Below are positions 12,979-63,422 of a DNA stretch of 64,000 bases, in pieces. This stretch comes from Paramecium tetraurelia. Lineage: Eukaryota. Location: assembly GCA_000165425.1 (NCBI GenBank), contig CT868032.1:62001-126000 (forward strand), read 5' to 3'. Positions within the stretch are counted from its first letter, which is position 1. Each line of letters opens with the position of its first letter. The translations under genes and the position numbers were made by a program. The notes under the pieces were generated by a model. It saw only the letters and a list, made by a program, of their open reading frames with translations. It searched no databases and was not told the origin of the DNA.

Positions 12979-13179
12979 TTTAATATTTTAATTATTTAAT
13001 TTTTATGTAATAAATATAAGAGATCTTTAATTAAAGAATTAAAATAAATATGATTCCCATCCTTAATTAATTCTAATTTTTATGTAATTTATTTTAGATA
13101 TATAATTGCATATATAATTGAATAAATAAACACTTTACATAAATGCATTTAAATATTTTCATTTGATTTGTGAAAAAAT

Positions 13180-26300: not shown

Positions 26301-28699
26301 GATGGATTCCATAATCTACAAATTATGGAGGAATTTGTGCATTATGCTCTGGAAATGTCATTCCAAATTACAATCCTCAAACATGTTAATGCTTTTAATA
26401 CATGACACAAAGTGATTGTAACAATGCTAGTGGGTAATCTTGTTATTGGTCAACAAATAACATATGTGCCCAATAAGTTTGTGCCAATATTGTAAGTCAA
26501 TCAGCATGTGCTTAAAACATAGCCTGTATTTGGAATGCTGGTACTTGTTAAACCTTCACTTCATGCAGTTAAGTCGCTGGAACAGGATTGACTGCTTAAC
26601 AATGTCTTAGTTATTCAATTCAATGCAAAGGCTACAATGGAGGAACTTGCACTTCAACTCCAAATTATACATGCAGTACATTATTAACACCAAGTGCTTG
26701 CAGTGGTAATTATGGATCCGACGGTGCCTGCTTATGGAATTCAACTGTTGCTCCTTCTGTATGTATTCCAATTACAAATTGCAGTTAAATTCCTTACCAA
26801 CAAATTTGTGGTTATTACACTGAAGGCTGTTAATTTGTAAATAATTAATGTCAATCCCTTACCTGCGGTTACTTCACAACTCCAGCAACATGCACATTTT
26901 ATGTATCATAACTTTACCCTGGATAAATTTAATAATGTCAATGGTCAGCAGCTACTGGAACTTGTGTTAATTTCTTCACATCTTCAGACTTAAATTCAGG
27001 CAATTGTGCTGCCAACACAGGATTCACTTATAGATGGGTTCCAACAAGTGCCAATAATGGAGATGGTTATTGTACTAAATGTATGATAAACTCCGTTAAT
27101 GTACCTGGATAATGTGCTTGCAACTAATTGATTTACTAGAATGATTGCTTAGCAAATTCTTAATGTTCTTGGTCCACCACTGCAACATCTCCAAGTTGTT
27201 ATAATAAACCTTGCAGTCAAATTATGTAATAAGCAATCTGCAGTACCAATCCAAGATGCTCATGGTCAGCTGCTTAAAATTTATGTTAACCATTTTCATC
27301 ATGTTCAGAACTTGCTGGTGTCAATGCTGGAGAATGTGCTAGTTATTCTGTTTTCTGTGCAGCCATATCAACAACATATTTACCTCTTCAAAATAAGTAT
27401 CTTTGCGCAGGCACTCAAGCTCAATGCACAGTTTCAAATCCATCAGGCACTGCTGGAGCAACAACTCCATCCAAATGTGAAAACACCTATGTTACTCAAG
27501 GTATCTGTTAATTTGACGCCGAAACCAAATAATGTAATAAGATCACCTAGTGTTCAGGAATTAACTCTCAATAGAAATGCCAATAATTCAACCGTTCTTG
27601 CTATTGGTAATTACCAACTGGAGCAGCAACAGCTGCCACTTGCGTACCTGCAAGTTGTACCTATTTCACCAATCAACAAACATGCACATATTATTTGACT
27701 TCCTTAACAACATCATCATCCTCAAAGGTTGTTCAATGTTCATGGTAACCAACTGGCTCATGCATAGAAGCTACAAATCTCTCAGCTGCCACATCAAAAA
27801 CCTGTTACTCCAACTCATTTATGATGTCAAGATGGACTTCCACCTAGGCTGAATCACCTAACGGATTCTGTGCATCATGCAGTTAATACAGTTTAACTTA
27901 AACTTACAAGTCTGTTTGCTCATGCTCTGAATTATCACAATATGAATGTCAAGTGGCTTCCCCTTAATGTGCATACAATTCAACTTCCACAAAGTGTGCT
28001 GCCCAAAACTGTACTTCAATTACATCTAAGTTTTCATGTGCTGCCAATCCTTCTTGCATCTACATTGGATCTTGCCAAACCTATACAAAAACACCTACTG
28101 GTACAAATGTTGGATGTGTTAACATTACTAGTGCCACATCTTCTTTCGATTGCTTAACTGCTTCAGCCAATTGTCCACAATTTACTGCCAGTGCCACCTA
28201 AGGAAATCCTGGTAGTTGCGGTGTTCGATAAGAATGCAGTAAACAAACTACTTAAGCACTATGTGAAGCCTACAATGCATAAGTCTTCACTGGTTATTGC
28301 ACTTGGAATGGCAGTGCTTGTTAAAATATTAATAATTGCAAACAGATTTCTGATGTTTCAGCATGCAATTTATAAACCAGCAGATGCCAATGGAGTGTTG
28401 TTTTGAATTCTTGCATCACACAATCATGCAATTCATATACTAGTCAAGCAGATTGCACATACGTGTACACTTCCTATTAACCTGGAGATATTGCTCTCTG
28501 TGCTTGGGATCCTGCCTATAATGAGTGTAGAAGTGCTCCCCTATCAAATTTAGATTCAACTTAATATAATTAGACTAACACCATCTAATGCTTTGTAAAT
28601 ACAGGTCATGTATATCACTTGGATGGAAATGAATGTACAAGGTGCTTCTAAAACATTTTAAGCATTCTTCTAATAACAATGCTCCTAATATTAATTTGA
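23378..28699 (+). CDS. Cys-rich GPI-anchored surface antigen-like protein, 1773 aa, seven tandem units
   Basis: Signal peptide MKSYILLAILIGLGAS; periodic CxW motifs; units start CxC at 23453, 24200, 24947, 25682, 26384, 27113 and 27917, all in one frame; hydrophobic C-terminal NILSILLITMLLILI-TGA. Confidence 0.9.
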
Positions 28700-38517: not shown

Positions 38518-38816
38518 TCACAAACAATTCTCATCTGCACATCTGATAAGAATTTAAATTTATTCTGTTTGCTTCCCTCTCAGACACTCAATGAATTGTC
38601 TAACATTCAATAATTACGATGAAATTCTTGTATTTCTCATACAATAGAACAACACCACTTGGCTCTCTCCTTCCTATGTAATTTCCGACTTAATACTTGC
38701 GATAGTATATGCTGCATCTCATTTGAGCATTGTCTATTTGAAATACAGTCATAATCTGTATTTATGCCAAAGCTAACCACCAAAAGTAATGTAAATAATA
38801 AATATTTAAAATACAT
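38518..38816 (-). CDS. Small secreted six-cysteine protein, 91 aa
   Basis: Signal peptide MYFKYLLFTLLLVVSFG; a 23-nt intron (GTATTAAG..ACATAG) restores the frame; ends RCADENCL-TGA. Confidence 0.7.
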
Positions 38817-39112
38817 AATATTTCTATATCTTAAATTATTTCATTTAATTGATAAACAGCATAATATCAAAAGGAATCTCATGAAAATTAAACTTGGAAG
38901 CCAATTATGCATATTTTAACTTAAAAATATGTATCACTTATTAACAATGAGACTTGATGAGAAATACATTTGTTAGAGATATTGATATATAACATGATAT
39001 TATTATTATTATTATAAATTTATATCCTATTCAAGAATATAATGAGTTGGCTTTAATAAATTATGATTAAGATCTTGAATATTTATGTTGGAAATATGCA
39101 TATATAATATGT

Positions 39113-42100
39113 TCAAAATCTAATGATTTTAGATCCTTTCTACTCAAACAATATTTCTAATGACTTACCATCTTATTCTATAACTGTATCTGATAAAATA
39201 CAATTACTTGCCGATATTAAACTATCTCTCCCAAATATTCTATAGCAGTGGATGTAGTCTCCTTAATTGCTCATTTGATCTAAGTGTATCTCATGTATAT
39301 CTTTTGGAAACATAAGTTTAAAGAGTCTGATTGATCCATCTTCCATAGCCACTGCCATGTCTTTACCATTTGGAGATAATGTTATTTTTGAAATAATTTC
39401 AATAAAGCCTTTAATAATTTAAACAGTGGCTGATTATTTAATGCTCCAAAATCTTATAGTGTGATCTTAGGAACCAGATACTATAATTGAATTATCTTAA
39501 CAGATAGATAAGCATATTATTTCCCCTTCATGTCCTTTCAATTCATTATTTAATTTCAAACCTAAGGGATCACTATTTACATTAAATAAATTAATGTCAC
39601 TACCAATTGCAGCTGCTAGAAGATCGCTATTATTTATAAAAACAACTGAAGTAAAGTGATTGTTATAATTTCCTTCGACTTCTTTTTTTTCATCCGTGAT
39701 ATAATTCCAAAGAAATAAAGTTGATCCTCCGAATGCAATAATAGTTTACTATTACATTATTGAGAAAGCATCAAATTTGTGAAATTATTGTAAAGCCCTG
39801 AAAGATGGAGAACTTGCAAGATTGAGCTATTCCAAATAGTATAACTTTTCACCTTCCTCTCTATGAAGACTATAACAACAAATATCCTTAGTAAATCTAA
39901 ACTTAGCTAATTCTTCTTCATTAAAGTAAATAACTCGGGACAGAATTATTTTATCTAACTCACTGATATTCCAAAGCTTGAATATACCAATTTCACAAAT
40001 TGATATTAATAATTATTCATCTTTGGAAACTAGTAAATTAAGAATTCTTCTATCATTATTGATAGTTGCAATTCTTTTTAGAGAGTCAAAATCTTGGCAA
40101 TCCCTAAATTCAATTTTGTCATCATTATTATAAACCATAATCTTTTATTTAGGAAAGAATACAGCAATCGCAGTAAAGCCTATCGGAAGTTCAATAGTTT
40201 CATAATTATTAGAAACTTTAGATGTGTATGTTTCTAATAAAGTAGAATATTTTAAGGTTTTAACGTTCCATAAGATTAAATATTTAAAGTATACATTTTC
40301 TATTGCCTTTCTATTTGAGTGCCTTCTGTATTTATCAACAAAAAGTCCACCTTATCCTACACTAACACATAATGAAAGATCTGAAGAAAAACTACAATTT
40401 TTAAATTCAATTTTAGGCACAATTAAAGTTTTAATGTAGTATTCAGATCTTTAATTTTTCTCTTAGTAATATATGAGACAAGCTTTCAGTTTTCCTATTG
40501 CGTCTGTGAAATCTAATTTCTAAATTGTATTATTTGTTTGAAAAAAGATTTGAGATTCCTATTTTATAAACATTGTTGAGTAATCAAAATTATTGCATTT
40601 TATTGTCTTGAGCAATAGTAATTGTACCATATCTTCTTCTATACACAATTTCCAGCAAAACATCTATTCCTTATTTCCACAAAATAAAATTGATTTTTCC
40701 GAGTTCAAACTGAGAAAATTAAAAGGGTCTCTTGAGCTATTATCATTATATTTTAAGTTAATTGCTTAATTATAAGAAAAAAAATAATTCTATAAATTTA
40801 ATAAGTATAACTCTGCTTCTTGATTACTATAAACTAAATAATTTTGATCAAAACTAAAATCAGCAATTATACATTGTTAAATTGATTTTAATTAATTATA
40901 CTAATTTTCAGACTATTGATAAATAGTACATTCAAAGTTTAAATTTTGATCTTAAGTAATTACAACAAGTTTCTCGATATCTTTGCTAAAAAACACTTTT
41001 TAAATTGAATGGTCAGAATTATTTGGTAATTATATTTTTTATTTTTGACTGTCTTAATTTTTCAAATAATTGATTAATATGGAAGAGTTTTTATCAAATG
41101 AAATAATACATAAAATTGATTTTAAATTTATATCCTTTTTACTTTCTTATTTCCTTTCTGTTTGTTCAGATTAAACATCCAGATTATCAATTTTATCAGA
41201 TTATTCAATTTTTTCAGATTCATCATTATTATTTTCTATTTATTCAGGTTCTTTTAGATAGAAGAATTTCATGAGGATTATTTCTGCTTAATGGCATTTA
41301 AAAGAATGCTTTAAAGAAAATGGATCTATTTCATAAATTGATATTTCATTTAATTGATTAGCTACTGCCAAAAGCAAATCATCATCAGAAAATTATAATA
41401 AATTGATTTTGCTATGATATTGAATAGTTTTTATTGTTTCGATTGAAATTAATTCCACTAATCTTAAAATTTTATTGTCTTGACTATCGTTTAGTCCAAT
41501 AGCTAAATATTTGACATAATTTGATATTGTAAAACATTGAATATCAAGATTTTCTAGAACTAATTCTAACTGCGAAGTGGAAATATTTTAATCTTTTATC
41601 AAATGATTTACATCCCACAAATAGATTTAATTCTTAAAATTTGTATAATAAAATTTATCATCATCTGTAAAATATTGTAAAAAGTCACGAGGATCAAAGT
41701 TTATTTTTAGGCTGCAAAGCAATTCATCACCATCTAAAAGCCTAAATATTATGATTTAATTATCAACCGAAGACAATATTTTAGAGTCATTTGAAAATAG
41801 AAGATAAATGATTTCTTCTGTGTTAAACTATTTTAATTGTATCAATTTTGGTTCAGATGTTTACAGTAACTTCCCTAGAGTTAATTAATTTTGAGAGTCT
41901 ACAGAGCATATATATTTGAAATCTTATGATATTTAGTAAAGGCGTATTTCAATTTCACCATATTCATATAAAAAAACAGACTCTTCAATTTAATGATCTC
42001 TTTTCCAGATTTCTACAAAAGACAAATAATAATACTTTTGATCTATCTCTTTAAATGAGTTCAAGGATAAAGTAATGAATAGGTTATCGTTTGAGAATAA

Positions 42101-45100
42101 TTAGAATTTTAACAGAGCGCTTTTTATTATAAAATTATAGGAGTAGCATCCACAAGGGATGAATTAGAATTTAGACTTTTATAACGCTTAATTATATTAA
42201 ATATTCCATTATTGTATTTCTCCTCCTTGTGTTATGAGAAGACATTCTTAATTACGAGTAACTGAAAAGGAATGTATGTTATAATCAAACGTCTTTGAAA
42301 TTAATAAATTCTTATGCTCCATATCCCATAATTTAAGAGTTTTATCTAAGCTTCCAGAATATAACACCAAACTATCTGCTGAGAACACTATATTTGTAAT
42401 TTCCTTCTCATGTCCATCTTAATATATCTTGTTTAAGTTGGCATTTAAATTCCATAATCTTATCAATTTGTCATCACTGCCAGATGCCAATGTTGAATTA
42501 TCTTAAGATATTTAAACTACATTCCCTTTCTCTGAGTGAACTTGGAATTTAGCTACTACTTTTCTTGCCTTAAAATCCCAAAAATAAATGGTTTTATTAT
42601 TTCCACAACCAGCTAAGAATTTTGAATCTTAAGAGAATGAAATATTTAAGAAATTTACATTCTCTTCCAATTTATTGAATTCTTGGTGTGTTTTATTCTC
42701 ATAAATATAGATTTTTGGACCTGCAGAAAAAACAACATTTTTTCTGTCTTTAGATATAGCTATACAATCACAATCTTCCTTTATTTCATGATAATTATTT
42801 TCTATTTACTATCCAATCAAATCTCTAACTTTAAATGTTTTATACTCTATATAAGCTACTTTTGATTCATTTTGTAAAAGAACTAAATCTTTTAAACTGT
42901 AAGCATCACAAGCAACTATAGATTTAATAAACTTTCTAATAATCATATCAGTGAATTAGATTTAATTTTTATCAAAAATGTTAGCAAGATAGTTAAATGA
43001 TGTTTTAGGAAGAGCTGAGTTTATTTTCCCATATATTATTCCAATAGATTAAGGTTTATGAATGTCTTCTAAATTAAAAAGATGTATCTTTTAGCCTACT
43101 AATATTAAAATTTTGCCATAATTCGAAAATTATAAAGAACTATAATAATCTTTCTCGGTTTAAACTTAACCTATGATTTATTTTGATTTAATGTTGAATA
43201 TTGTAATTATCTAGTTATTCTGAGACACTATATTGCAGTTATCTGGGCTAAATTCAACAATTCCTAGGTGAGAGAATTCTTCAATAAGAAGATTTGATTC
43301 AAAATACGATAATTTCGACAACTATTGATTTCCGTATATTATATATTATGAGTTATTCGATATCGCAATTATACTTAAATCTTTATTATTAATAAATCTT
43401 TATTTGCCAGTCAGGGTTACAGCATAAACTTTTGAATTTGAAAGACTATAACTATCCAAAACCTTTGCCAAATATTTACCATCTTTTGAAAAAACAATAT
43501 GTTCATTGGATGATTTACTGTAATAGTCAATTAAAGTGAACCTATTATTTCCATCATTCCTCCAAATTTTTACTGATTCTAATTCTTTTGTATACAGATA
43601 TCCTTCATTAAAAAACATTTTCGCATAGAATGCAGATTTCAGATTTGGAATTAATTCTAGCAAATTGTTTGATTTGATATTCAAAGTATATATCCCAGAA
43701 GGAATAGTGACAATCAATCTTTCTTTATCTTAACAATATTAAACTGACTCAATGGTACCAGGAAGTGGAAAACTGAATTCAATTTTACAATTGCTTTATA
43801 TTTTCCACATTACTACTTTTTCTTTTATTCCACCAACGATATGTTGATCATCAGCTGAAAATTAAGTTTGAACATGCAAATTATCTGAACTCTCTAAAAC
43901 TCCTATATATTTAAAGTCATCAAATTAAATCACTCTACTCCTCTCAGAGCAAGTATACAGAATACCTTATATTTGATGTAAGCAAACTATTCTTTGCACA
44001 TCTTCGTTGTTTTTACTTTCTTAAGCAGCTAATAATTTGAGTTATGGGAAATTTGAAATGTCCCATAATTTCATAACGCTTTTTGCACTAATTAAATATT
44101 TTCCATCATATGTAAAACATAAGGATCTGATGTATTCACCTGTCTCAAATTAATATATTAATTAATTTGTCTCGAAATCCCAAAATTTAATATTCAATTC
44201 ATCACTAGAAGTAGCAAATATATTTTATTTTGGAGAAGATGCAATAGTTTTTATTGATGAATCAGCTCCTTTAAAAGTAACAATACTCTCGTCAGAAATG
44301 AATTTCCATATTTTTATATCTTCGTTATTATAGAATGCAACCCATAAACAATCATAAGAAAAGCAGATTTCTGGTGATATACTAAAATAATTGTACCGAC
44401 TCTAATCATTAATAGATTCATTTAAAGAATACAATTAATTTTAGCCAAAATCCCAAATTATTATTAACTTATCACTTATTGATGCCAAGGCTAAATATTT
44501 ATCATCATAAGAAAATACTATTGATGATATTTTACAGTCCAATTTAATTTCATACTTTTGATAAAATTTTAATTCTTCTTAAACCCAAATTTAAGTTTTT
44601 GAATCCTTACTAATGCTTGCAAAGAGGGAGGATTTATGAGAAAATGCACCTAATTGAAATTAATTATAATTTTTCTCGAATTCGATATTCCCATTGCCTT
44701 TCATAAATTCAACAATAAAATCACTGCTACCAGATTTCACAATTAATTAATCATTTTAAGAAATAGAAAATACTCTACCATATAGGGAAATATCATCAAT
44801 CGTTTTCAATTAAATTTTATTTAAACTTATTATTCCTAATTATCGATTATCTCCTTATATTTAATAAACTACTTTATCAAAGTCTTATGATATGGTTATA
44901 TTTTAAGAGTAGGAATTTTCAAAAGTTGCAATTAATTAGCATGTTTCCACTGACCAAAGTCTTAAACTTTTTGAATAATCTCCACTTAGTAATTTTTTTC
45001 CATTGCTAATGAATAAAAGCTCCTCTATTGAATAATCATTCTCAAAAGTCATGATTGGAGAATATGTAAACAATTCCCAAAGTATTATTTATTATTTATT

Positions 45101-48100
45101 ACCAGTAGCTATTAAATTTTCATCTGGTGAGAAATCAATGCAAGAACAGCCTGTAATTTAATATTATTATTCTTATTTATATATGTTGTTAATGTTTTAA
45201 ATTAATAATACATCTCCAATTTTATATATTGATTATTAATCATCTGAGGTGAATAATATATTTTCAATTCTATATTTAGTAGAAGTTAGAAGTAAATAAG
45301 GTTGGCTAATGTTTTCAATATTCCATACAGCTAAACCTTTAAAATCTGAACAATCGCAAACACAATAGAGTAATTCAAATGTTGAGTTCATTACTACATA
45401 TGTAATTTGAAAAGAGAATTCTATTTCAGTTGAGACTTTTTGTTCTTTTACATCCCAAAGTGTAACCTTTTTGTCTTCGCTTACTGAAGCCAACATTTCA
45501 CCATTCTAGAAAAATGAAATGAATTTTATCTCGCTTTCAGAGCTTTTTAAGGTAAATCCATCTTTTTAATTGAAATTAGATTTAATTAAATTTACATCCC
45601 AAAATTCAATAAAACCTAATTCATCAACAACAATTAATTCCTTATCATTTAACGACAATTGCATTTATATGATTTTTTCTTATCTCATAATTTGCTAATC
45701 TGATTTCTTGATACTTTTAAGATCAGTAATTGACCAAATCTCAATTATATTTTTATCACTGCAGATAAATACAAGTTAGTCGTCGCCCGAGAATACCAAG
45801 AATTTAGTTATATTAGATATTTCGCTTATTTCTCCCAATAACTAAAAATTTAACACATCCCAAAACTTTACAATTTTTTCAGAGTCTGCACTTGCTATTA
45901 ATTTACCATCATTTGAATATTAAATTATAACAACGCCACTTTTATGTCCTTATAACAATGGTTTTTCAGAGCATATCACACTCTTCCATCTAGCCTTCTC
46001 CAAATGAGCTTTGTCGAATAAACAAGAGTCAATAATTACCTCTTCGAAAATTGAATTCTAAGATCTACTATTAAGAGAGGATAATCCTTTAAGGGTGGTC
46101 TTTTTAATTTTTATCCCTGAAAAGTCTTACTCTCCTAGATATACTTATAAATGACTTAGAATACAAAAACTATTTGAAGAGACCACCTCAAATGTCAGAT
46201 TTGTAGATAATTTAACCATGGAAATTAATTTACGGATATTTTCATACTTAAGTTTTAGTTTTTGTTTCAGAATACTTAATGATCCAGAGTAATTTTCTAG
46301 TGAGATATTAAAGTCTTTATTGTTAAAGACAGAGGTTTCTAAATAGGTTTAGCTATTATAGGTGAGTTAATTATCTTTCAATTCAAGTTTATCAATTAAA
46401 TTATTGATGTGTTGTGCAACATAAAATTCTTATAAAGATTTATGATTAAAAGAATAGTTTTTCCCCTTCATATTAATCAATGCAGAGCTTCTAACAAGTT
46501 TTCTATATTCATCTTCCAAATCATCAAAATATTGCATTTTCCATTTGTCTTTATCTTTTTAATCAAAATAATGATTTTTCATTTGTAATTTTCCTTTTTA
46601 CTCATAATTGACTTATGTTATTTAATTAATAGTCATTTCTATTGCTAATGATTCTGAAAATTATACTAGATCTATTGTAAAACTATCTACATTTTCAACT
46701 TTCCCTAATTGTCTAAGTTTCTAGATTTATTATTCATGATAAAACTCTATAAAATTTTAATAGAATTCATAAATTGTAAATATCTTCATTTTAAATGCTG
46801 AAATCACAACCTTTAAATCATCATTACTTATATCTGCTAATTAATTGTTTAACAAAGAAATGTCAGTTATTGAATAATTTTCAAAAAATCTCTAGCTTTC
46901 CAATTTTTCAAGGATGATTTTTAGACATTTTAAATCTTATTGATACTCTTAATCTTGTTCATTCTGCTTTTCCTAAATTTTTGTTTCCTCTTTGATAGCC
47001 TGCTCATTTTTTTATTCTTAATATGAGAATTATAACAATAGTCTTTTTGATAAATTTTCTTTATTTTTCAATAGAAGGAAGTTATTTTGAAACATTTCCT
47101 TAACATCATTAGATCCTTTGTATTTTTTTGAAAGACTTGGCAGAGTTTAAACTACTATTTCTAGCATAAATGGAGTTTATAAGAAATGATAAATGTTTAG
47201 ATTCTCGATAGTTTTATTAAATAACTTTGCGCTCCATAATTCTTTAAGTTCTTTTTTTAAAATAATTAGCTAATTTTATTATACATATTGAAATGTAGGC
47301 TATTTTCTTATTACTTCCAAAATATTCTCAATTTATTCATCTAATAGTAACTTATCAGAATTTTCACAATTTTCCATATCTTAATATCCCAATTTATTTA
47401 AAATCTTATTCCAAATCTCTAAAAATTCTTGAACATTTTATTGTTATTATTTAACTTACTTGACAAAATCATATTATGATTTAATTCTTCTTTTAATACT
47501 TAATTTAACATAATGGTTGAGATAACATTCACTTTATTACTTATCAAAATTCATGATTTCAACTTCTTTGAATGTCATAAGACTTTCTCCATAAAACCAT
47601 GTCTAATATCCTAAACTTGTCAATATTTCTTTTCGGGTTGTTATTATAAATTTTACTTTTCTTCTTTAATTTATTTAATGAAGATCAAGTTCTTATATTA
47701 GTCTATTTGTTAATATTAAATTTGATTAAATACAATCTTATTTCATTTCGTCATAACTATCAAGTATCATTACGATTTGAATTTTATTGTTCTAAATTGC
47801 TTCTTTGAAATCTTTCAATTGTAACTTATCAAACCCATAATTTTCAGATTCAAGTGCTTGATCTACTAAATTAAACTTTGGATTTTTTAATTAAGGCAAT
47901 GAAATATAGATAGGAACCCAATCGTTTTAGTCTAAGTTTTATTTCCAAAGATACTCTTCTATCTTTCTAGCTGCTCTGCTTTTTCCTGAGCCAGCAAGAC
48001 CTTTAATCAACATTACATCTTTATTCTCTTCTTCATAAATAAATTAATTAACTTCACCTTCCCTTTCTTCTTTATTGTTTTATTTGACATCTTCAACAAG

Positions 48101-51100
48101 CAACTCAGAAAACTATGAACCTGAAATAGTATTTTAAACTTAACCTGTAACAGGATTGACTTCCTAAGTTTTTAATGGAATATACACAGAATCAAGTTCC
48201 AAGATATAGGCTTATTATAATACCTTTTCTTTTCTAATTTATAATAGCTCTTCATATTTTTTTCCTCGTAATTTTCTTACATCATTTCCAATCTCATTTA
48301 TTGATTCTTAAAGATCATCTATTTTCTTTTTTATTTATTTTACATTTTTTTATAGCTCTTTTAAAAAGATTAAAGTAATATCCAATTATTAAGACATTTC
48401 AGAAATATTATCAAGAAATTCCTCAAATTCCTCATATTGACTTGTTAACTGTTTCTACAATGTAATTCTATTGGATTAATTACTTTCAAAGCGAATTGCT
48501 TATTCAATTTCATCCATTTCCTTCAATCTTTAATTCATCTCATCTTTAATACTAGCAGATAAGGTTTTTAGATCATGAGAAAACAATATCTTTTACATTT
48601 CTATCATCTCTTTATTTTTTAGTAACGCTCTCACACTTTCATCTTTTTCTATCATCCATATTCTTTTTATATATTCTTGGCAAAGCAATAATAATTCTTT
48701 TTCAGGAATTTAAGATTAAATTTTCATTAAATGGAAAAGGAAACATTCTCGAACTATATAATCTTTACTCAAATCATAGAATTTTCTTTCCGAAACTATT
48801 TCTTAATTTAAATAATCTATTATTTCTTAGTATTCCTTATCTATCTTAACATTGATTTCTAAAGTTCCAAAATTATAACAAAAAATTGAGGCAAAATCTT
48901 TTAATGAAAAATTTATTTTATTTTTGAATTAATTATCGTCTGTCTATTATTTATTTATCATATTCTCAGTAAATTCATTTAACAATTTATCCAATTCTAA
49001 TTAATTTATTAATTTCTTTAATTATTGATTTAACATTTTCTAAAAAATGCTTTTGAAAATTATCTTCAGTTATATATATGAAACCCATGCAATTTTAATG
49101 AACATATTTAGATAATACTTCCATATTAATTATTATGTTGTTTAAATTTATTATTTATTTATTCCATTCTGTTAATTTTCTAGAAAGATGAATTAAATAC
49201 CCATTCTATAAAATACACTCTTTCTAATCTTGATCGATAGGATTCTCCTATGGATTATAATTCAATATTTAATTTTCTTTATATTACTGATATTTTTCTA
49301 ATATCTCCTTTTTGAATTAATCAGGATCTTATTAAGATGACAATTTAAATTTATAAAATGAATTATAAAGATAAGTTTATAGAATTAAAGCTTAACTTAC
49401 TTAGTCGGATTATTAATATGCAAAATTTATTATAATTTTATTTCTTAATATTACTATTTAATCTAGTATTCTTTAAATATCATTTTTATCCTAAAATTCC
49501 TTTTAAATTTATGTCTCAATATCTTTTTACTATTCTGAAATCAGTTCATTTATCGATATTTATTATTCTTAATCATTGTCTTATTATATAATGACTCTAC
49601 TCTATTTAATTTCTAAGGTGGATTTGAGATTTAACTCAAAATTTGTAAAAATATAAACTTTCTGCAGATATTAACCTTATGTAATTTTCATAATTTTGAT
49701 ATATTTCTAAATATTTTAGTTAAATTGTTATATTTCGTCAATTGTTTGAAAACTCTATTAAATAAGTCTCTCCTTAAACTCTTTATGGTATTCATTATTA
49801 TTAAATTAGAATTTATCCCTTTCGATAATATCTAAGAAAAAATCGTGCATGTTTTAATCTAATTATTCATTATATTATTTTAGAGATGACTAATTAAGTC
49901 TCCAAAAATTCTTAAATGATTATTGTTAAATATTCAGTTCTTATAAATATTTTTCTATTAAAATCTAAACATCTCTAAAAAATATACTCAACTCATTCTC
50001 TTGACTCTACATTTATTTTTCTTAAGATTTGATTTTTTCACCTTTAGATAACTTAGGTAGAGATTCGCTATTGTTGGCGATGAGGTCAAAAATTTAATTG
50101 TATTTTTTAGGTAAATCAATTTTTAACCAGTCATCATAAATTTTTTCAAGCTATTTCTATTGATCGTCAATCTAACTTAATAATTTATTTTTCTCTTTTT
50201 TATTTTAATTTTGTTTTTCTTATTCGTTTTAGTATTCATTCATTTTGGCTGATTCTTGGCAGATTTCCATCCTCTTTTTCTCAATAATCATAGTGAAATT
50301 TACTTCATTAAGCAAGTAGGAAAGTTTTAAAAGGGTAAAATCTAATTATTACACTTCTCCATCTTTATCTAATATAAGATCATATTTATTAACATTATTT
50401 TTAGTTTCTTTTTCTTAAGGAGTGGTTTGGAATGATTTTCCTAAACTTTCAGAATACTATATAGTGATCTTTTCTTTAATCTCTTTTAACAATAAACTTA
50501 AACGATTTAGCCTCTTCATCTATTCATCAGCACCCAATAATTCAAGTTGTTGTGATATAGTGGTTTTCTCTTGTGGTTTTTTTTGTTTTTAAAAGGTAAA
50601 ATTTACATAAAATTAAAAGAAATTTTATTTATTATAAAATTATTGATTTAATATAGCATTTTAAAAACTTTTGATCTTTTTCACCCCTAAATTAATTAAA
50701 GTTTGTTCGGATTCATAGTCTATGGACTTAAAGGAAAAATCATTATTTACTTTTCCGAGCAATTTATCATATGATAATACTTTTATAATATTTTGTTTAA
50801 TTAAATCATTCCATAATTATTTTGGTTGCAAGCTATTAAGAAACACACTTTTTGAAATAATTTACCTATATGCAATCAAATCTGAAATAGCATTTATCCA
50901 ACAAAAGTGTACTATCCAATTATCTGAATTCTATACATATTATTCATATCCTCGCTAGAGACTTTCTATTTATTTATTAAGTTCATTCTTTTCTTAAATA
51001 TTTTTTATGATATTCCATTTTAACAGAAAGAAGAAGTAATAGATCTAGTATGTTTGAATAGGAAAGCTATACTAATTAAATTTTTCAATTAACAAATATT

Positions 51101-51956
51101 TTGCAAAATCAAATAAGGCATTTGTAAAATCTTCACTTATTGAGAGTGATAATATAGAAGAAAAAGCAGAAGATGCAATAGATATTAATTTATCTTATTA
51201 TTCCTTTGAATTTGTCTTACTATTTATTAAGACTATTTTTATCAAAGTGATTTAAAATTCCAATCCCCTTATCCAAAAATTTTTATGAATTTCAAGATCA
51301 TTTTTGATAATATCAATCTCTGTTAATAAATCGCCATGCATTTCAACTGTAAGATAACGGCTATCATCATTTAGTTAATAGGTATAAATTATCAATAATA
51401 AATCATTACAAACTTCTAAAACATAATAGCAAAGACATCCTGAACCCCTTAAATAAACAGGTATTACTGAAATAAGCTGTCTAAATGAATTTAATGCGAC
51501 ATCATAAAGCATCAATATCAAGTTGTCATTTTTGCAAATTTCACAAATCCAATATCTATTATCAGAAAACCATTATATTGACATCATTAATTCATTTCTT
51601 GAAAAACCATCCGAAATTTAATCACATTTATCTATAAGTATTTGGCAATTTTATTTCATTGTTGATTAGTAGTTAATAGGAATTGTGATTGACATCTGAC
51701 TTTTTTTTTTGGATCCTCCACATCCTCCTCCTCTGAGGGATGGGGATGGATGTTATTTATTTAAATATCTAACTTTATCAAATTTCATTTCAAGAATCCG
51801 TTCATGAATTTCATTAGTACCCAAACATTTCATTAAAAGCTATGAATTGGAAGAAGACTAGCTGCTTAAATTATTTCCCACTTTAGCTCCAGTTATTTGC
51901 TACAACAAATAAAAAATCATATTAAATTTTTTTTAATATTCAGGGGCTGAAATCAT
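39113..51956 (-). CDS. Giant (~4270 aa) NLR-like STAND protein: helical N-terminus, NACHT NTPase, pentapeptide-like segment, very long WD40 array
   Basis: Walker A VMLIKGLAGSGKS (47978-48001); WVPIYISLP; Walker B MILDSYDE; IITTRKE; LQTPFML; SFNHKSIQEF; DFSGIKIKKTTLKG..FDKAHLEKARW; GH..LASGSDDKLIRLW-type WD40s from ~45960 to ~39300; one frame break near 48975-49050; start codon uncertain. Confidence 0.85.
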
Positions 51957-52469
51957 TTTATTTCCTTAAAATCTAGCATTATTAATTAATTTGATTAGTA
52001 ACGACAAAATTATTCATATAAATTGAAAAAATTAATTTAATTCAAAATTTGAAGGATGAAGGATGAAGAATCAAACCATTAGGATAATAATATGCAAAGT
52101 ATTGGTTATGCCAAATTAAACCAAAATAATTTTTTTCTTAACCAATTAAATTTATCTTAGCAAAAAATTCAACACTACTAAATATATGTTTCAATTATAT
52201 ATGGAGCAACTGAATGCATTTAGAATTTCCATATTTGAAATAATAATTATGATATAAGAAATATATTAATAAAATAATAGAGGGGATTCTTATATGGTCA
52301 TGTCATTGAACTTACTTAAAAATAATCAATGATTAGAAATATAATCATATATTAATATTGAACAATTATAAACCTAATAGTTTAATTAATAGATATTTAA
52401 TTGCTCTAAGCAATATTAATATAAATGGTTTGCATAATTTAAATAATATTAAAATATATGAATATAAAA

Positions 52470-53150
52470 ATATTAAACTCCAGATCTTTCGGTATTTTGA
52501 AGAGGATATATATTTATCTAACTGAGAATTCTACTTATTAACCTCTCACCTCTTATAAGCAGATTATGTGTGGACAGTGTGTTTGTAGTATAGATAAGGT
52601 ATTCTTTTTGATGTTCCAGTTAACTACATTTAATTGTGTTTATATATTTGTAACATTCATGGAGGGGGTGTTTAAACTTTGATTTCTCATATTTGCTTCA
52701 TTATTTTTGTCTCCGATGAAATTGGATTTCCTTTGGTTAAAATGATAAATAATTATGAACTTTAAAATTATTAACTTATTAGATAAAAGATCGTTTTATT
52801 ATATCTTACTTCCTCTTTAATGCTGTTAAGCGATAAAATCGATACCATCCCTAAATTCTATTTCTTAAATTTTTTAAATTTATTACATAATGATGTAAAT
52901 CGATTTACAAAAGTGTTTTACAATATTTTATCTCTATCCTGTTTCAATTCACGTTTAATATTAGCCTTTTCATTATTAATAATTTTTTCATCCTTTTTGT
53001 ATTATTGGTTTATTTATTCAAATGTGGATTGAAATATTTTAGAAATTTAAACCATCCAATGAGTTGAATCATTTAGGTATTTGATTACTTATATTTTTTT
53101 ATGAAAGATTTATGTTCATTAATGATGAAATGATGGTGTTTATCTGAATT
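52470..53150 (-). mobile_element. Degenerate non-LTR retrotransposon remnant (N-terminus of an APE-type endonuclease)
   Basis: QLNVVNWNIKKNTLSILQTHCPHIICLQEVRG (52541-52636) matches EEP/APE motifs I (xWNx) and II (DIICLQE), with the linker shortened; the frame degrades on both sides; outer boundaries approximate. Confidence 0.55.
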
Positions 53151-53174
53151 GAAATTTTATTAATGAAAAAAGTA

Positions 53175-53445
53175 GAATGATTAATAGCAAATAATTTATT
53201 AGAATAACTCAAATAAATTACAATAATTATGAACTTTGAATGAAAAACGTAAATAAATGATAAGAATATACAAATAAAATTAATTTGATAATATGAATTA
53301 TGAATAATAAATAGTAAATAAATGATTAGAATAAATCAAATAACTGATTACAATAATTATGAATTTAGAATAAATAGTAAATTAATGATTAGAATAAATT
53401 AAATAAATAATTATAATAATTATGTATTTAGAGTAATAAATAGTA
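53175..53445. repeat. Degenerate AT-rich minisatellite, ~60-63 bp unit, ~4 copies
   Basis: Recurring AAATAGTAAA(T)AATGATTAGAATAAAT(C/T)AAATAA..TTA(C/T)AATAATTATG(A/T)ATTTAGA. Confidence 0.7.
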
Positions 53446-53901
53446 ATAAATCAGTAGAAAAAACAAATAAAAAGTATATAATGATTTATATATGTATATG
53501 AATATAAAAACATGATATTAATGTGTGAAAATCAAACATATCCTAATATAAAAAAATAGAATTATTTTAGATTTTACAATTTTATTGTATAAATTGCAGA
53601 TAATAGATAAATTTAAGATTATCATGAATTTAACAATCTTAATATAATTATATATTATTTAAAATATCATTATTTAGATCTTCAATTTATATATTAAATG
53701 ATTTAGAGTATTTTCTTATTTTTTGTTTCTAAAATATTCAAATTTATTTAGAATATTAAATTTTGTTTTAGAAAGTAAATCTAGCTGAGCATTTTTATGT
53801 AAATATCAACATATCTTAATCTGTTTGTTACATTTATTTATTATTTATCAATAAAGCCTAAATGGCCAAGTTAAATGTGCATTGGGTGTTTAATATTTTC
53901 A

Positions 53902-54051
53902 NNNNNNNNNNNNNNNNNNNNNNNNNNNNNNNNNNNNNNNNNNNNNNNNNNNNNNNNNNNNNNNNNNNNNNNNNNNNNNNNNNNNNNNNNNNNNNNNNNN
54001 NNNNNNNNNNNNNNNNNNNNNNNNNNNNNNNNNNNNNNNNNNNNNNNNNNN
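53902..54051. other. Assembly gap (150 N)
   Basis: Run of N characters. Confidence 1.
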
Positions 54052-58706: not shown

Positions 58707-58760
58707 TTTATATGTATTTAGTGACATTAGCATATTATATAAATAATTAACTATACTTAG

Positions 58761-60350
58761 ATGTTGGTTTTTCTAACTCTCTCTCTCGTGCACTCCTTTT
58801 AGTAATACGAAATACTGATAGGATACCCTCAAATTATAGAGTATTATTCTGCTTCAGGGATCATCATAGAACAGAATCTCACATCCTCATCAGAAATCGA
58901 GTTAACTACTTCTCCTTGTTAAGTTGTACCATAGCAACTAATCAATCAGAATATGTTAGACTAGTCATTACCTATCATACCTTAATATTTGCCGGAGTAG
59001 TTTTCCCAATATTTTGATGATGGCCACTTTTTAGGGTTGATACCCCACATCATTTCATTTGTCAATATAGAAAACGATGTGGTTATTTTAACAAATTAAG
59101 CAGAATTAATCTACATTCGATTCCTAAATGAATCCTTCATTGTTTCTGACAAAATTAATCTAAACATTAATGTGACTATATTGCAATATCCTGTTTTTAT
59201 GGAGACGATTAGGAATCAATTGATTATTATCATGTATTCAGACACTGTTGGAATTACATTAGACATCAAATCTGAAAAGATATTTTCAAAATCATTTCGC
59301 ATTTACGAATCATTTAATACGAATAAAATCTTGAGTGTAGCCGTTGTTAATAATATGTTATTTATTGCTATGGGCGTAGGAGGGTTAAAAATATTCTAAT
59401 TAAATGGCCAAATTTTAGGTTCAATTGATTTCGAGTATTAAATTAATAATGCAACTGATCTCAAAGTTTTTCATGAATTTGATGTATATTATATTTACTT
59501 ACTTGATTATGATTTGGGAGTCTCATCCTTCATATACAACCCCAAATCTACCTTAATATACAAGAATGAGAGACTAGATACTATTCCCTATTCTGGAGAT
59601 ATTATTGATATTTATAATAACATTATGATGATTGCCAGTTACTAAGATTAATAAACAATAATTTAGGAAATCTATTTGAACTACACCGATTTTAGTTGGA
59701 AATAAGTTAATAAACATATTGTTAACTCAATTATAGTAGATATTGATATTTTAGATCATGTTGCAATCACTCTAGGTAAAAATGGAAACACAGTTATCTT
59801 CCATTCCATTCCTTCATAATACCAAATCAAATAGCAACACTTTATTATGCCTTCATTGTAAAAATTGAGTTTTATTAAATCAAAAAGTTCATTGTATCTT
59901 CTGGGTGTCAGTCTTCATAATTTCTATTATTCTAAATTAGAATTAAAGTAGAGTTACTTATAATGCTATTTTGAATAGGAATAATAGATTAAATTATCCT
60001 ATTCACACATTTCAGAATGCAAGAAATATAAATCCGGAATTTGTGCTTACACTTAAGAATATTTGATATAATCGATTAAACCAATCATAACGACAGAATA
60101 AAATTTTTTAATTTATTTAATTTTATTCCTTGTAGCTCTAGCCTTTATTACCATAATAGTAATTCTCATAAGAGAGTTCAATAAATATCATGAATTTGTT
60201 CATAATTTAGATCCAATTTGTCCAAAATCAAACGAAATAACTATGTAAACTTTTGAAAGTCCAACTAAAATAATTAAATTCAATTAGACAGGAGCACATA
60301 CTTCATAGTTCTCTATAATCAGTAATATGACCAGATTGTAGTAAGTTTGA
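58761..60350 (+). CDS. Type I membrane protein with beta-rich ectodomain (paralogue A)
   Basis: Signal peptide MLVFLTLSLVHS; NNMLFIAMGVGGLKIF; TM LIYLILFLVALAFITIIVILI followed by REFNKY. Confidence 0.75.
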
Positions 60351-60383
60351 TGAGCGTATTATTTATATTATTATAAATAAATA

Positions 60384-62032
60384 ATGCTGATTTTTTTATT
60401 ACTAATATTTGTGCAAAGTCAGGATTATAATATCTCGGTTGATTCTGAAAAAGTAATTGACAAGTTTGATCAATATGGTGAAATCTTTTATTAGGAAATT
60501 GATTACTAAAATAATTCATTCAAACCATGTCATTTCACTAAACAAAAGTTAGTTCAAAGTACAGGATTAAATATAGATATTGTTGAATCTTTTAATGAAA
60601 CATTCTTCCAGCAGAATTATGAGGAAGGCCATTTAAATGCTAAAATTGATGAAGTCATAGCAGCTGTCACTATTTAAAATGGATCAATTGTTTTGACCAA
60701 ATAGGGAAAATTGTAACATTTACTGATTACTAATACAATCACTTTAGGTAGTTCAATAATGATTAATATTAAGACTGCAAAAAAGGTATATCTAAAATAC
60801 CTTAGCAGAAATAGAGTTTTACTGATAATTGCAGATTAAGAAACTTAAGCATTTCAGCTTTCAAACAAAACAGATGTTTTTCAAGATTCATAAAAACTAA
60901 GGATATATGACTAATTCAACGTTGAGTAAATCTCAAGTATAACTACTGTAAATGATATGGTTTTCATTGCAATGGGTAGATAGGGCATTTAAATGTATTA
61001 ATTTAAAGAAAAGAATTTACAATCAATCTCTTGGGTATTGAATGGTGAATCAAATAACTAGTTTCATGATGTAGTCGACATTAAAGTGTTCTCACAAAAT
61101 TAAGATCAAATCTATACAATTTATATTTTAGATAAGAAATTGGGTGTCTAATAATTTGTTTATAATTCAATAACAACCTTGATCTCCATGAATACTAAAT
61201 TAGGAACAATCCCATTGATTGGGGACATCTTTGATATTAGATAGTCTATTTTAATTATCATAGAGCATCAGCCCTCCTTTTCTTTTGTACACGAAATAAC
61301 ATTAGATTTAACAAACAATACATACAAATAACTTAATAAATATAGAACTTTCAAAGATGTTCAGGATGTTGATATTTTGAATCATTATGTTGTTATATTA
61401 GGTAAGAATGGCCATTAAGTATTAAGGCATTCCCTACCCCAAAGTTTCAATAATTAGTCATCCAATTCAATAATTATACCAAATCTATAATAATTAGATT
61501 ATATTGATTACAAAACAAGGACCATAATATTTGGATTCACTAAACATAAATTCTTTTATTCCTCCATTAGAGAAGTAAACATTTAATTATATACTAGTCT
61601 CCAAGTGTAATTTATTGTTTTTCAAACAACACTGAAGTTCATTAGACAAAGTTTGTTTATAAATAAAAATCAACAAAATGTCCTGATGAACTCAATGTTA
61701 CAAAGGAAGAAATATGTTAGATTCAAAAAGATTATACAGTTAATTTCATTCCCCCAAAAAATGGAGCAGGATATTCTTAATTGATATTAATTTATGGTGT
61801 TGCATTTGTGTTGGGGCTTGGGTTTATGATGTTAAGTTTTCTGTTGTGTAGAGAGTTCAGAAAATACGAACATTTCGTTAAATATAATGAGATGGTAGAC
61901 AACGATTCAATTGGATTGGAGGGATAAAATTCAAATAATTCTTAAGATTCATCCAATTAGAGAAAGTTTGAGAAAATTGAACAAAAAGGATCTTCAATGA
62001 CTCCAGTTGTTTATGAGGAGAAAGATGATTGA
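60384..62032 (+). CDS. Type I membrane protein with beta-rich ectodomain (paralogue B)
   Basis: Signal peptide MLIFLLLIFVQS; NDMVFIAMGRQGIQMY; shared DVDIL.H..LGKNG..HS.P block; TM then REFRKY; one intron near 61578. Confidence 0.75.
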
Positions 62033-62171
62033 TAATATTTTATGTTATTATCAAATTGATTGATTGATAAATAAATGGATTATATTAATTTGGGAACGGA
62101 GAGTAATAATTTTAAAATGATTTTTAAATGTAAAAGAAAAGTTCGAAAGATAGTTGAAATTTATAAGATTA

Positions 62172-63422
62172 ATGAAAAAATAGTAAAGTCCTGAGATGTA
62201 CTTGATAAAGAATGACCAATTTTGGCATTGTTAATTTATATAGTTAAAACCAATAACAATTCAAATTCGGAATGGATTTTTGAATGGCAATATAGAAAAA
62301 CAAGAGACTATAGAAATTTCATTAACTAAGTTCCCAACAATGGAAAGAGGTATTGAAGTGATGAGTGAATAAATCTAGTAAAAATTATAGAAGGGATTTC
62401 GAGAAATCAATAGCAATGATATATTGAAAGCAAACGAGTAACAATTCTAAGAGAAAACTGTTGCATCTTCCAAAAAGGATTTAATGTAATAAAAGATTTT
62501 GAAGAAGGTGAATTTACCAGAATAACGGAAACCGGTGGTGGCATTGACAGATGATGCTACATAGGGGAAGTTAGTGGGTGAATGGCCAAAATATAGAGCC
62601 AGAACTCATTTAGGAGAAACATTGGAACTTGGTCCTCCTGGAGATACAAAACCTATTGCTTGTTTATTGGCTGGACAATGGAATGAGAATATTAATCCAA
62701 CAAATTATTTATTATCTGAGAAATTAGATGGCATGCGTATAATTTGGAGTGGATGTGAAATGTTTACTAGAAATGGTAATTCATTAAACTTCCCTACATC
62801 ATTTGTTGAAGGATGGCCAACTACCTATCTAGACGGAGAATTATGGCTTGACAGAGGATAATTTTAGAAATTGGTTAGCATAGCCAAAAAGAAACAACCT
62901 GATTATAAGGCGTGGAAGGATATCAAATTTATGGTTTTTGATGCTCCTTTATTAGATGAACCTTTTGTGAATCGATATGCCAAATTTAAAAAGGCTATAG
63001 AAAAAATAAAGAATCCTCATCTGGTTTATGTTCCACATGTTGTATGCAGAGGTTATGAACATTTAAAAGAAGAACTAGCCCTTGCTTAACAAGCAGGAGG
63101 AGAAGGATTGATGTTGAGAGACCCATAATCAAAATATGAAGGAAAAAGATCAAACACATTATTAAAAGTCAAAACTACAATGGACTCAGAGGCTACTGTA
63201 ATAGATCACATTAGTGGTATGGGTAAGTTTAAGGATTAATTGGGAGCTTTGAAAGTGTAGACAGATGCAGGTATAACATTTTAGATTGGAGTTGGATTCA
63301 ATAGCAAATTAAGGAAAGATCCTCCAAAGATTGGTTCTAGAGTTTCTTATAGTTATTATGGATTGACTGACGACGGGAAACCAAGATTCCCTGTATTTGA
63401 AAGAATAAGGGAAGACATATGA
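62172..63422 (+). CDS. Minimal ATP-dependent DNA ligase (adenylation + OB domains) with N-terminal WGR-like domain, 416 aa
   Basis: Intronless ORF; motif I SEKLDGMR, III LDGELW, IIIa FMVFDAP, IV GEGLMLR, V LLKVK, OB domain ..GKPRFPVF. Confidence 0.9.

What the first reader, a model, noticed from the sequence alone, without database searches (positions are those of the whole stretch)
39113..51956. ~4270-aa NACHT-pentapeptide-WD40 receptor with ~2200 aa of divergent WD40 repeats
Seen: a ~1300-aa helical N-terminal region, a full NACHT motif set, a short pentapeptide-like segment, then ~6.7 kb of WD40 repeats. The repeats are mutually divergent and include an acidic low-complexity insert at ~41130-41260. 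Established: NACHT-WD40 is the architecture of fungal NWD/HET-E non-self receptors and related STAND sensors. Inference: this is an NLR-like sensor with several beta-propellers and an uncharacterised N-terminal effector domain, relevant in a host of intracellular bacteria. It is nearly intron-free over 12.8 kb and sits next to a transposon remnant and gap, consistent with a fast-evolving accessory locus.
Basis: partly seen in the sequence, partly recalled or inferred. Interest (0 to 1): 0.7.

Follow-up and report, generated by a model that had tools for sequence, protein, structure and literature searches.

The report
Giant Paramecium NLR-like protein, hidden lipid-tag
A Paramecium gene encodes a 4,280-residue NLR-type switch protein, and its family keeps a copy of ubiquitin's last four residues right before a textbook lipid-anchoring signal, which suggests (untested) that a deubiquitinase-type cut is needed to send these proteins to membranes.

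Summary
The gene is real and intact. The assembly splits it into two frames, but contigs of three runs lack one base at 49013, giving one intronless 4,280-codon ORF in code 6. Confirmed: NACHT module (best folds NLRC4, NLRP3, NOD2), short pentapeptide, about 2,200 residues of mutually divergent WD40, acidic insert. It belongs to a family of about 40-46 loci, enriched at scaffold ends, with orthologs in three other aurelia species. It lacks HET-E-type near-identical repeats, and no MLKL/HeLo fold was found.

New observation: 35 of 40 loci with the N-terminal domain carry LRGG|G (the rest are gaps, ends, fragments or unchecked), after an unconserved leader. Only a cut after LRGG puts G-C-x-x-S/T-K in myristoylation register (17 of 30, against 0 of 30 for the other two cuts and 0.7% background). 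A chlamydial full-chassis homolog has LLGG|GCGVS; one relative starts directly M-GGRTS. Best reading: an NLR-like sensor whose ubiquitin-tail mimic is cleaved, unmasking acylation and membrane targeting. Cleavage, lipidation and immune role are untested; expression is low. Ten paper searches and seven look-ups of this scan's notes did not show this motif.

The parts
39113..51956 (-). Single intronless CDS, 4,280 aa in code 6 (4,268 aa if the start is ATG 51920)
   Evidence: database model P0031 starts at the second ATG
51738..51956 (-). Unconserved leader (61-73 aa here; 2-138 aa in 35 database relatives); no ubiquitin Pfam match
51708..51737 (-). LRGG|GCGGSK: ubiquitin-tail-like LRGG followed by a cryptic N-myristoylation/S-acylation motif (G1-C2-x-x-S5-K6); predicted disordered
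   Evidence: pLDDT under 50 for this stretch; ubiquitin tail RLRGG as in PMC9271420 passages; NMT consensus recalled
50720..51670 (-). Conserved all-helical N-terminal domain with no Pfam match; shared with a chlamydial protein and unnamed metagenomic and eukaryotic proteins
   Evidence: AlphaFold mean pLDDT 85; generic HEAT/ARM matches only, best Z 10.5; profile hits
48845..50719 (-). Variable linker (about residues 413-1037), not modelled; taken as helical from its composition (inference)
   Evidence: ortholog identity 51-62%, distant paralogs 15-27%; no Pfam match
49013..49013 (.). One extra base in the assembly that splits the ORF; an assembly error
   Evidence: left out in contigs of X1, X3, X16; orthologs collinear
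48191..48844 (-). Helical hairpins plus long coiled-coil-like helices just before the NACHT domain; conserved in the chlamydial homolog
   Evidence: model helices 2-218; blastp to P0065 E 7e-34 over this region and NACHT
46142..48259 (-). NACHT module (nucleotide-binding, helical and winged-helix parts); Walker A 47978-48001, Walker B 47747-47764, winged-helix motif 46424-46450
   Evidence: Pfam; invariant residues; NLRC4 Z 18.6, rmsd 4.1, 388 aligned; NLRP3 Z 16.7; NOD2 Z 16.1; Foldseek E 1e-8
45973..46138 (-). Short pentapeptide-repeat segment (about 10 units)
39310..45958 (-). WD40 region, about 2,200 aa; 20 blades seen by sequence; by length up to about 50 blades or about 7 propellers (inference, not modelled)
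41131..41260 (-). Acidic low-complexity insert in the WD40 region
52451..52708 (-). Degenerate fragment of an exonuclease/endonuclease/phosphatase-type gene, probably a non-LTR retroelement remnant (inference); beside the gene, not part of it
   Evidence: 4 other copies in G000; Pfam PF03372 E 0.13 here, 0.0011 in L053
38565..54051 (.). Slot with no counterpart in the duplicated sister segment G000:C77, which holds a different large Cys-rich ORF between the same flanking genes

Best explanation
An intact member of an expanded Paramecium family of STAND/NACHT switch proteins built like NLRs, with a protease-gated membrane anchor. Step 1 (shown): one intronless ORF with N-terminal helical domain, NACHT module, pentapeptide and long divergent WD40 region. 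Step 2 (shown as sequence pattern): the family keeps LRGG followed by G-(C)-x-x-S/T-(K) behind a leader that is not conserved. Step 3 (inferred): a resident protease that reads the ubiquitin tail (a deubiquitinase, LxGG specificity) cuts after LRGG; N-myristoyltransferase acylates the new Gly1 and the nearby Cys is S-acylated, so the protein docks on a membrane. Step 4 (inferred from NLR biology): the WD40 propellers hold the NACHT module closed until a ligand, probably non-self or modified self at that membrane, triggers nucleotide exchange and oligomerisation, and the N-terminal helical region passes on the signal. Odds: cleavage at LRGG with myristoylation about 0.65; sensor of non-self or infection about 0.65; both about 0.5.
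For: Fold of the NACHT module is closest to NLRC4, NLRP3 and NOD2, with invariant catalytic motifs in 20 of 20 paralogs. Motif: LRGGG in 16 of the 20 loci picked by NACHT similarity, the other 4 being one N gap and three contig ends; in 35 of 40 loci picked by the helical domain alone. L, R, G, G, G are each invariant in 31 of 31 copies yet use 4-5 different codons, so the constraint is on the protein. Register: S/T5 plus K6 in 17 of 30 genome copies and 9 of 35 database relatives after an LRGG cut, 0 for cuts after R or RG, background 0.7% of 1,668 glycines; Cys at positions 2-4 in 30 of 30. Three further copies found without the motif read GSAFS, GSGSS and GACTS: Cys is lost or moved, Gly1 and Ser5 stay. 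Distant homologs: LLGG|GCGVS (Ca. Neptunichlamydia P0065), LLGG|GNSSSK (P0069), LKGG|GPVFS (P0083), IWGG|GNKSA (P0104); P0120 starts M-GGRTS, a direct myristoylation-type start. The motif lies in a predicted disordered stretch. NMT genes are present (4 places). Precedent for protease-unmasked acylation: AvrPphB, passage in PMC11475232. Family traits: scaffold-end enrichment 14 of 26 against 2.9 expected, a tandem cluster of five, WD40 dN/dS above NACHT.
Against: No cleavage, lipidation, localisation or immune function has been shown; all of steps 3 and 4 are inference. The leader is not a ubiquitin fold, and most cellular deubiquitinases cut bare LRGG peptides poorly (recalled). 4 of the 8 non-Paramecium homologs examined lack a GG|G motif (P0110, P0087, P0118, P0120). 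The loose myristoylation pattern alone fits all three registers (27, 23 and 24 of 30); only the S/T5-K6 test separates them, and paralogs are not independent samples. 6 of 31 copies fail the loose pattern. No domain-wide dN/dS exceeds 1 and the test was on other paralogs, not this gene. Expression is very low: 10 reads in 19 million records of the one raw RNA run. No death or enzyme effector domain was found. Scaffold-end enrichment may partly reflect assembly breaks at repeated genes.
Confidence: 0.5

Rival explanations
1. Tripwire: the LRGG is bait for deubiquitinases or LxGG proteases injected by intracellular bacteria or viruses. Cleavage is the sensing event; it unmasks lipidation, moves the protein to a membrane and switches it on.
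For: The leader has no ubiquitin fold, which suits peptide-reading microbial proteases: a viral papain-like protease and a Salmonella effector cut RLRGG peptides (passages in PMC9271420 and PMC11475232). Decoy models are described for NLRs (PMC5658179).
Against: Bait usually diversifies (recalled), while LRGG is invariant and the WD40 region varies. Bacterial homologs carry LxGG|G too, which fits processing by a resident host enzyme better.
Confidence: 0.15
2. A membrane-anchored STAND scaffold with a non-immune job (trafficking, cortex, development), using the same processing.
For: Catalytic motifs are conserved and an ortholog lineage persists in four aurelia species. The top fold lists include non-immune oocyte-lattice NLRPs. 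No effector domain was identified.
Against: Birth-and-death pattern: about 46 NACHT matches, tandem arrays, many broken or partial copies in the assembly, loss from the duplicated sister segment, fast WD40 change, very low expression.
Confidence: 0.15
3. The motif is not cut after GG. It is either an internal S-acylation or binding site (RGG-type), or it is cut after Arg by an Arg-specific protease.
For: The loose myristoylation pattern also fits a cut after R (27 of 30). Cys near the motif could be palmitoylated without cleavage.
Against: S/T5-K6 spacing fits only the third Gly (17 against 0 and 0 of 30). Some copies lack the Cys but keep Gly1 and Ser5. All four distant homologs with the motif have no Arg at that place (LLGG twice, LKGG, IWGG).
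Confidence: 0.12
4. A decaying relic of genes taken from an endosymbiont, with little present function; this copy is a pseudogene.
For: Frameshift in the assembly, almost no raw RNA reads, no introns, bacterial homologs.
Against: The frameshift is an assembly error. 12.8 kb stay open, orthologs are intact, dN/dS of the NACHT core is 0.18-0.31, and a P. bursaria member keeps the motif.
Confidence: 0.05

Closest known systems
Mortierellaceae and Mycoavidus alpha-solenoid-NACHT-(pentapeptide)-WD40 NLRs (bioRxiv 10.1101/2022.03.16.484565, passages; example P0024, Linnemannia elongata)
   Same: Long helical N-terminus, NACHT, pentapeptide-like spacer, WD40; shared between a eukaryote and intracellular bacteria; weak NACHT similarity (E 1.5e-4).
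   Different: P0024 has Pfam ARM_5; the Paramecium N-terminal domain shows no match to it (hhalign probability 0.03). About twice as long, far more WD40, and an LRGG|G acylation motif; the paper has no 'RGG', 'myristoyl' or 'ciliate'.
Podospora HET-E/NWD NACHT-WD40 allorecognition receptors (recalled; general NLR layout in PMC5658179, parts 1-2 of 3 read)
   Same: Tripartite layout with NACHT and WD40.
   Different: No near-identical hypervariable repeats (mean blade identity 25%); no HET or HeLo domain found.
Animal NLRs NLRC4, NLRP3, NOD2
   Same: Best structural matches of the NACHT module (Z 16-19).
   Different: WD40 instead of LRR; no death-fold domain; 10-17% identity.
Ca. Neptunichlamydia sp. 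REUL1 NACHT protein WP_316359038.1 (P0065) and unnamed relatives P0110, P0087, P0140
   Same: Same helical N-terminal domain (profile E 1.5e-23), pre-NACHT helices and NACHT (blastp E 7e-34); P0065 has LLGG|GCGVS.
   Different: Uncharacterised; P0065 ends within the NACHT module, P0087 has ankyrin repeats, P0110 has regular WD40 repeats and no motif.
Protease-unmasked acylation (AvrPphB, passage in PMC11475232) and ubiquitin-like precursor processing (Sde2, ubiquitin-ribosomal fusions; recalled, paper not held)
   Same: A cut exposes a new N-terminal residue that sets the protein's fate; in AvrPphB this is myristoylation plus palmitoylation.
   Different: AvrPphB cuts itself; Sde2-type leaders are folded ubiquitin domains. 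Here a bare four-residue ubiquitin tail sits before the acylation signal, on a STAND protein. I found no description of that combination.

Membership tests
STAND/NACHT NTPases (NLR-like) | NACHT domain with Walker A, Walker B and sensor-1 | tested here: met
   PF05729 E 2.9e-12; motifs invariant in 20 of 20 paralogs
STAND/NACHT NTPases (NLR-like) | Helical and winged-helix domains after the nucleotide-binding domain | tested here: met
   model aligns to NLRC4 over residues 196-901, Z 18.6, rmsd 4.1, 388 aligned; F-x-H-K-S-x-Q-E conserved
STAND/NACHT NTPases (NLR-like) | C-terminal repeat sensor domain | tested here: met
   WD40, PF00400 E 3.7e-63; 20 blades
STAND/NACHT NTPases (NLR-like) | N-terminal effector or signalling domain of known type | tested here: inconclusive
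   no Pfam match; residues 73-419 give generic solenoid matches; residues 420-1037 not modelled
STAND/NACHT NTPases (NLR-like) | Ligand-triggered nucleotide exchange, oligomerisation and defence output | not testable with these tools
   needs experiment
HET-E/NWD receptors | WD40 repeats of high internal identity with a few hypervariable codons (recalled) | tested here: not met
   no blastn self-match; mean blade identity 25%, maximum 53%
HET-E/NWD receptors | HET, HeLo-like or amyloid N-terminal module | tested here: inconclusive
   no Pfam match in the N-terminal 1012 aa; not listed in fold searches
Mortierella/Mycoavidus ARM_5-NACHT-WD40 | Pfam ARM_5 (PF23948) before NACHT | tested here: not met
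   absent from P0002 at E 0.1 and from 48300-49000 at E 1; present in P0024; hhalign probability 0.03
Mortierella/Mycoavidus ARM_5-NACHT-WD40 | NACHT, pentapeptide, WD40 order | tested here: met
N-myristoylated, S-acylated proteins | G1-x-x-x-S/T5-(K6) with nearby Cys (consensus recalled) | tested here: met
   conditional on a cut after LRGG
N-myristoylated, S-acylated proteins | Glycine actually exposed and acylated | not testable with these tools
   needs proteomics
Ubiquitin-like precursor fusions (Sde2 type) | Folded ubiquitin-like domain before the diglycine | tested here: not met
   no Pfam match to the leader at E 1; leaders as short as 2-11 aa

The most novel reading that the evidence does not exclude
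Paramecium has an NLR-like repertoire of about 40 giant genes, shared with protist-infecting Chlamydiae, whose members are licensed by a bare ubiquitin-tail mimic: a deubiquitinase cut after LRGG unmasks N-myristoylation and S-acylation and so gates membrane targeting. In the boldest form the cutting enzyme comes from the invader, so the motif is a tripwire for microbial deubiquitinases in a single-celled eukaryote, and the bacterial homologs use the same trick to get lipidated only inside a host.
Probability: 0.3. Interest if true: 0.88.

Novelty: new variant of a known kind. Interest (0 to 1): 0.7.

Why it matters
Little is in print on intracellular non-self sensing in ciliates in the library searched, although Paramecium hosts many intracellular bacteria. 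This names a candidate receptor family and a cheap, sharp test. If the motif works as predicted, it is a way to couple the ubiquitin-processing machinery to protein lipidation that I did not find described, and it gives a searchable signature (LxGG|G-x-x-x-S/T) for host-processed proteins of endosymbionts. It also shows that this gene is mis-annotated as a 676-aa fragment because of an assembly error.

Tried and rejected
Intron at the frame break: no 20-34 nt candidate, and run contigs show a missing base instead. Programmed +1 frameshift at the AAA-TGA that ends the first ORF (a Euplotes-like idea, recalled): rejected for the same reason. MLKL, HeLo or CC effector: none listed for residues 73-419 (Foldseek no E under 0.001; VIA best Z 10.5, generic); this does not exclude them, and residues 420-1037 and 1038-1230 were not searched alone. 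Homology of the N-terminal domain to ARM_5: not detected. Genomic context of the bacterial homologs: scans of prokaryote genomes found nothing, viral contigs nothing, metagenomes one 1.75-kb contig; a word search with P0065 found only itself. No hit was named as another ciliate genus among the 30 profile hits looked up, but 82 of 112 were not looked up there. Direction of transfer: the tree (58 sequences, 436 columns, FastTree) groups Paramecium (0.935) apart from P0065, P0110 and P0087 (0.904) but has one distant root and cannot give a donor; one locus with Ns and four database duplicates were dropped, one of them (P0026) by a loose filter. dN/dS for this gene against orthologs could not be run (no ortholog DNA). 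A language-model look-alike search of the N-terminal domain was not obtained. Motif hits at L028, L031, L032 and L033 are chance reading frames ending in a stop; L039 has two short hits unrelated to the family. Papers: ten searches; 'LRGG + myristoylation + NACHT' gave 0 papers; the 24 listed for 'LRGGG' were unrelated by title except a viral protease paper. Subscription journals and bioRxiv supplements were not seen and may bear on the novelty claim.
Full report
Setting. The window is AT-rich and has no long ORF in the standard code but many in NCBI table 6; a neighbour carries the Paramecium surface antigen domain. It is G000:C49:62001-126000. A database protein identical to the start of this gene is named P. 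tetraurelia GSPATT00034040001, on a contig of the same length as C49. Residue numbers below count from ATG 51956 with base 49013 left out.

The gene. The assembly gives two overlapping minus-strand ORFs, 1012 and 3382 aa. No GT..AG intron of 20-34 nt joins them. Contigs of three runs (X1, X3, X16) that span the site each lack one base at 49013. With that base left out the frame is open for 4,280 codons, and five orthologs align across the junction without a break. Eight further substitutions seen in the runs change seven residues and add no stop. The gene is therefore intact and intronless. Transcription is weakly supported: the one raw RNA run gave 10 reads of 19 million records, mostly at the 3' end and all in one orientation; X16, only guessed to be RNA, covers the gene with depth falling from about 55 at the 3' end to about 5 at the 5' end and does not cover the upstream bases at 52181.

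Anatomy. Leader (1-73), LRGG|GCGGSK (74-83), helical domain (about 96-412; AlphaFold pLDDT 85), variable linker (413-1037, not modelled), helical hairpins and long helices (1038-1255), NACHT module (1233-1938), pentapeptide (about 1940-1995), WD40 (2000 to about 4215) with an acidic insert (3566-3609). The NACHT model (pLDDT 77.5) matches NLRC4 (Z 18.6, rmsd 4.1, 388 aligned), NLRP3 (16.7) and NOD2 (16.1) best. Walker A, Walker B, sensor-1 and winged-helix residues are invariant in 20 of 20 paralogs. The WD40 repeats are divergent: 20 blades are recognisable, mean identity 25%; the number of propellers is an inference from length. The N-terminal domain gives only generic HEAT/ARM matches, so no effector fold is identified.

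Family. A NACHT query finds 46 matches in G000, a lower bound in which a few genes match twice. Of 26 matches on contigs over 100 kb whose length I had, 14 lie within 20 kb of an end, against 2.9 expected; assembly breaks may add to this. Five copies form a tandem cluster on C202, where dN/dS over six pairs is 0.18-0.31 for the NACHT region, 0.41-0.45 for the N-terminus (three pairs) and 0.49-0.71 for WD40. This gene is internal and forms a clade (support 1.0) with five proteins from P. primaurelia, P. pentaurelia and P. sonneborni. The duplicated sister segment on C77 is collinear on both sides but has no match to 38565-54051 and holds a different Cys-rich ORF there. A P. bursaria member exists. 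Outside Paramecium the N-terminal profile (112 hits in all) finds a Ca. Neptunichlamydia NACHT protein (E 1.5e-23), a bacterial hypothetical protein and unnamed metagenomic and eukaryotic proteins. The chlamydial protein also matches the pre-NACHT helices and NACHT (E 7e-34), so the whole chassis is shared. Similarity to a Linnemannia ARM_5-NACHT-WD40 protein is limited to NACHT and WD40.

The motif. Among paralogs only 19-40% identical in the N-terminal domain, LRGGG is fixed. To avoid choosing loci by the motif I used two independent sets. Of 20 loci chosen by NACHT similarity, 16 have it; the others are one N gap and three contig ends. Of 40 loci found by the helical domain without the motif, 35 have it; the others are one N gap, one contig end, two degenerate fragments and one not examined. 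A genome-wide DNA pattern for LRGGGC gave 14 hits and its reversed control 0; 13 are family loci and one (L021) has no family domain. Each of the five residues is invariant in 31 of 31 copies but uses 4-5 codons. The leader varies from 2 to 138 aa in database models and is not ubiquitin-like. LRGG is the ubiquitin C-terminus (RLRGG substrate in PMC9271420, passages). What follows reads G-C-x-x-S/T-K, the recalled consensus for N-myristoylation with S-acylation. S/T5 plus K6 occurs in 17 of 30 genome copies if the cut is after LRGG, in 0 of 30 for cuts after R or RG, and at 0.7% of other glycines; in 35 non-identical database relatives the counts are 9, 0 and 0. The loose pattern alone does not separate the registers (24, 27 and 23 of 30), and paralogs are related. 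Three divergent copies lose or move the Cys but keep Gly1 and Ser5. Four of eight non-Paramecium homologs have (L/I)xGG|G before the domain, none with Arg; of the other four one starts M-GGRTS. NMT genes are present.

How it most likely works. Shown: architecture, integrity, family behaviour and the sequence pattern. Inferred: a resident LxGG-reading protease removes the leader; NMT and an acyltransferase lipidate the new end; the protein sits on a membrane as a closed STAND switch and oligomerises when the WD40 region meets a ligand. I put cleavage with myristoylation at about 0.65, a non-self sensing role at about 0.65, and both at 0.5. Rivals are a tripwire for microbial deubiquitinases (0.15), a non-immune scaffold (0.15), an uncut or Arg-cut motif (0.12) and a relic (0.05). 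The main weakness is that cellular deubiquitinases usually need the ubiquitin fold (recalled), which is absent here.

Comparison and novelty. It is a NACHT-WD40 STAND protein and works, by structure, like an NLR; databases label relatives 'NACHT domain-containing protein'. It is not a HET-E/NWD member (no near-identical repeats) nor an ARM_5 member (not detected). Protease-unmasked acylation is known for AvrPphB (PMC11475232, passages) and diglycine processing for Sde2-type precursors (recalled). I found no paper on the LRGG|G acylation motif or on this family in Paramecium in ten searches. Papers seen: passages of PMC9004412, 10.1101/2022.03.16.484565, PMC9271420, PMC11475232, 10.64898/2026.03.27.714854, 10.64898/2026.04.11.717937 and 10.1101/2025.04.24.650466; parts 1-2 of 3 of PMC5658179; listings only for the rest. 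Earlier notes of this scan describe other NACHT-WD40 proteins on other DNA but none with this motif or sequence.

Verdict. Observation confirmed, with the frame break explained. Interpretation partly supported. New variant of a known kind; interest 0.7, resting on the conserved, precisely registered and directly testable motif rather than on the architecture.

Noticed in passing
G000:C77:118925-125677 (L055/L056): A 2,251-aa intronless Cys-rich ORF with a hydrophobic C-terminus and no Pfam match sits in the slot that the NACHT gene fills on C49: two unrelated large genes at one duplicated position.
   Followed up: partly
L021:7958-8887 (G000:C45, minus strand): An ORF with LRGG|GCCYSSK but no match to the family's helical domain or NACHT; perhaps a degenerate member or a second family using the motif.
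   Followed up: no
G000:C202:410500-485500: Tandem cluster of five family genes; three are split by frameshifts in the assembly, which may be errors like the one at 49013.
   Followed up: partly
window 46006-46153, 48926, 51913, 52181-52302: Clusters of G-to-A/T differences against run contigs, pointing to low-quality assembly stretches; 43807 differs in X1 and X16 but not X3, a possible strain variant.
   Followed up: partly
window 9679-13158 (minus strand): A USP40-like deubiquitinase gene (UCH and ubiquitin-like domains) lies in the same window; no link to the NACHT gene was tested.
   Followed up: no
window 23279-28699 (plus strand): Intronless 1,806-aa Cys-rich surface-antigen-like gene (PF01508); shows that long intronless genes are not unique to the NACHT family.
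   Followed up: no
window 13180-17202, 58725-60350, 60354-61784: Long ORFs with no Pfam match; the last two look like adjacent related secreted or membrane proteins.
   Followed up: no
P0065, P0069 (L041:352-1737): The bacterial homologs share a conserved leader of about 110-118 aa before LLGG|G, a candidate secretion signal that a host protease would remove (inference).
   Followed up: no
window 62121-63422 (plus strand): Small ATP-dependent DNA ligase gene with DNA_ligase_OB_2 domain.
   Followed up: no
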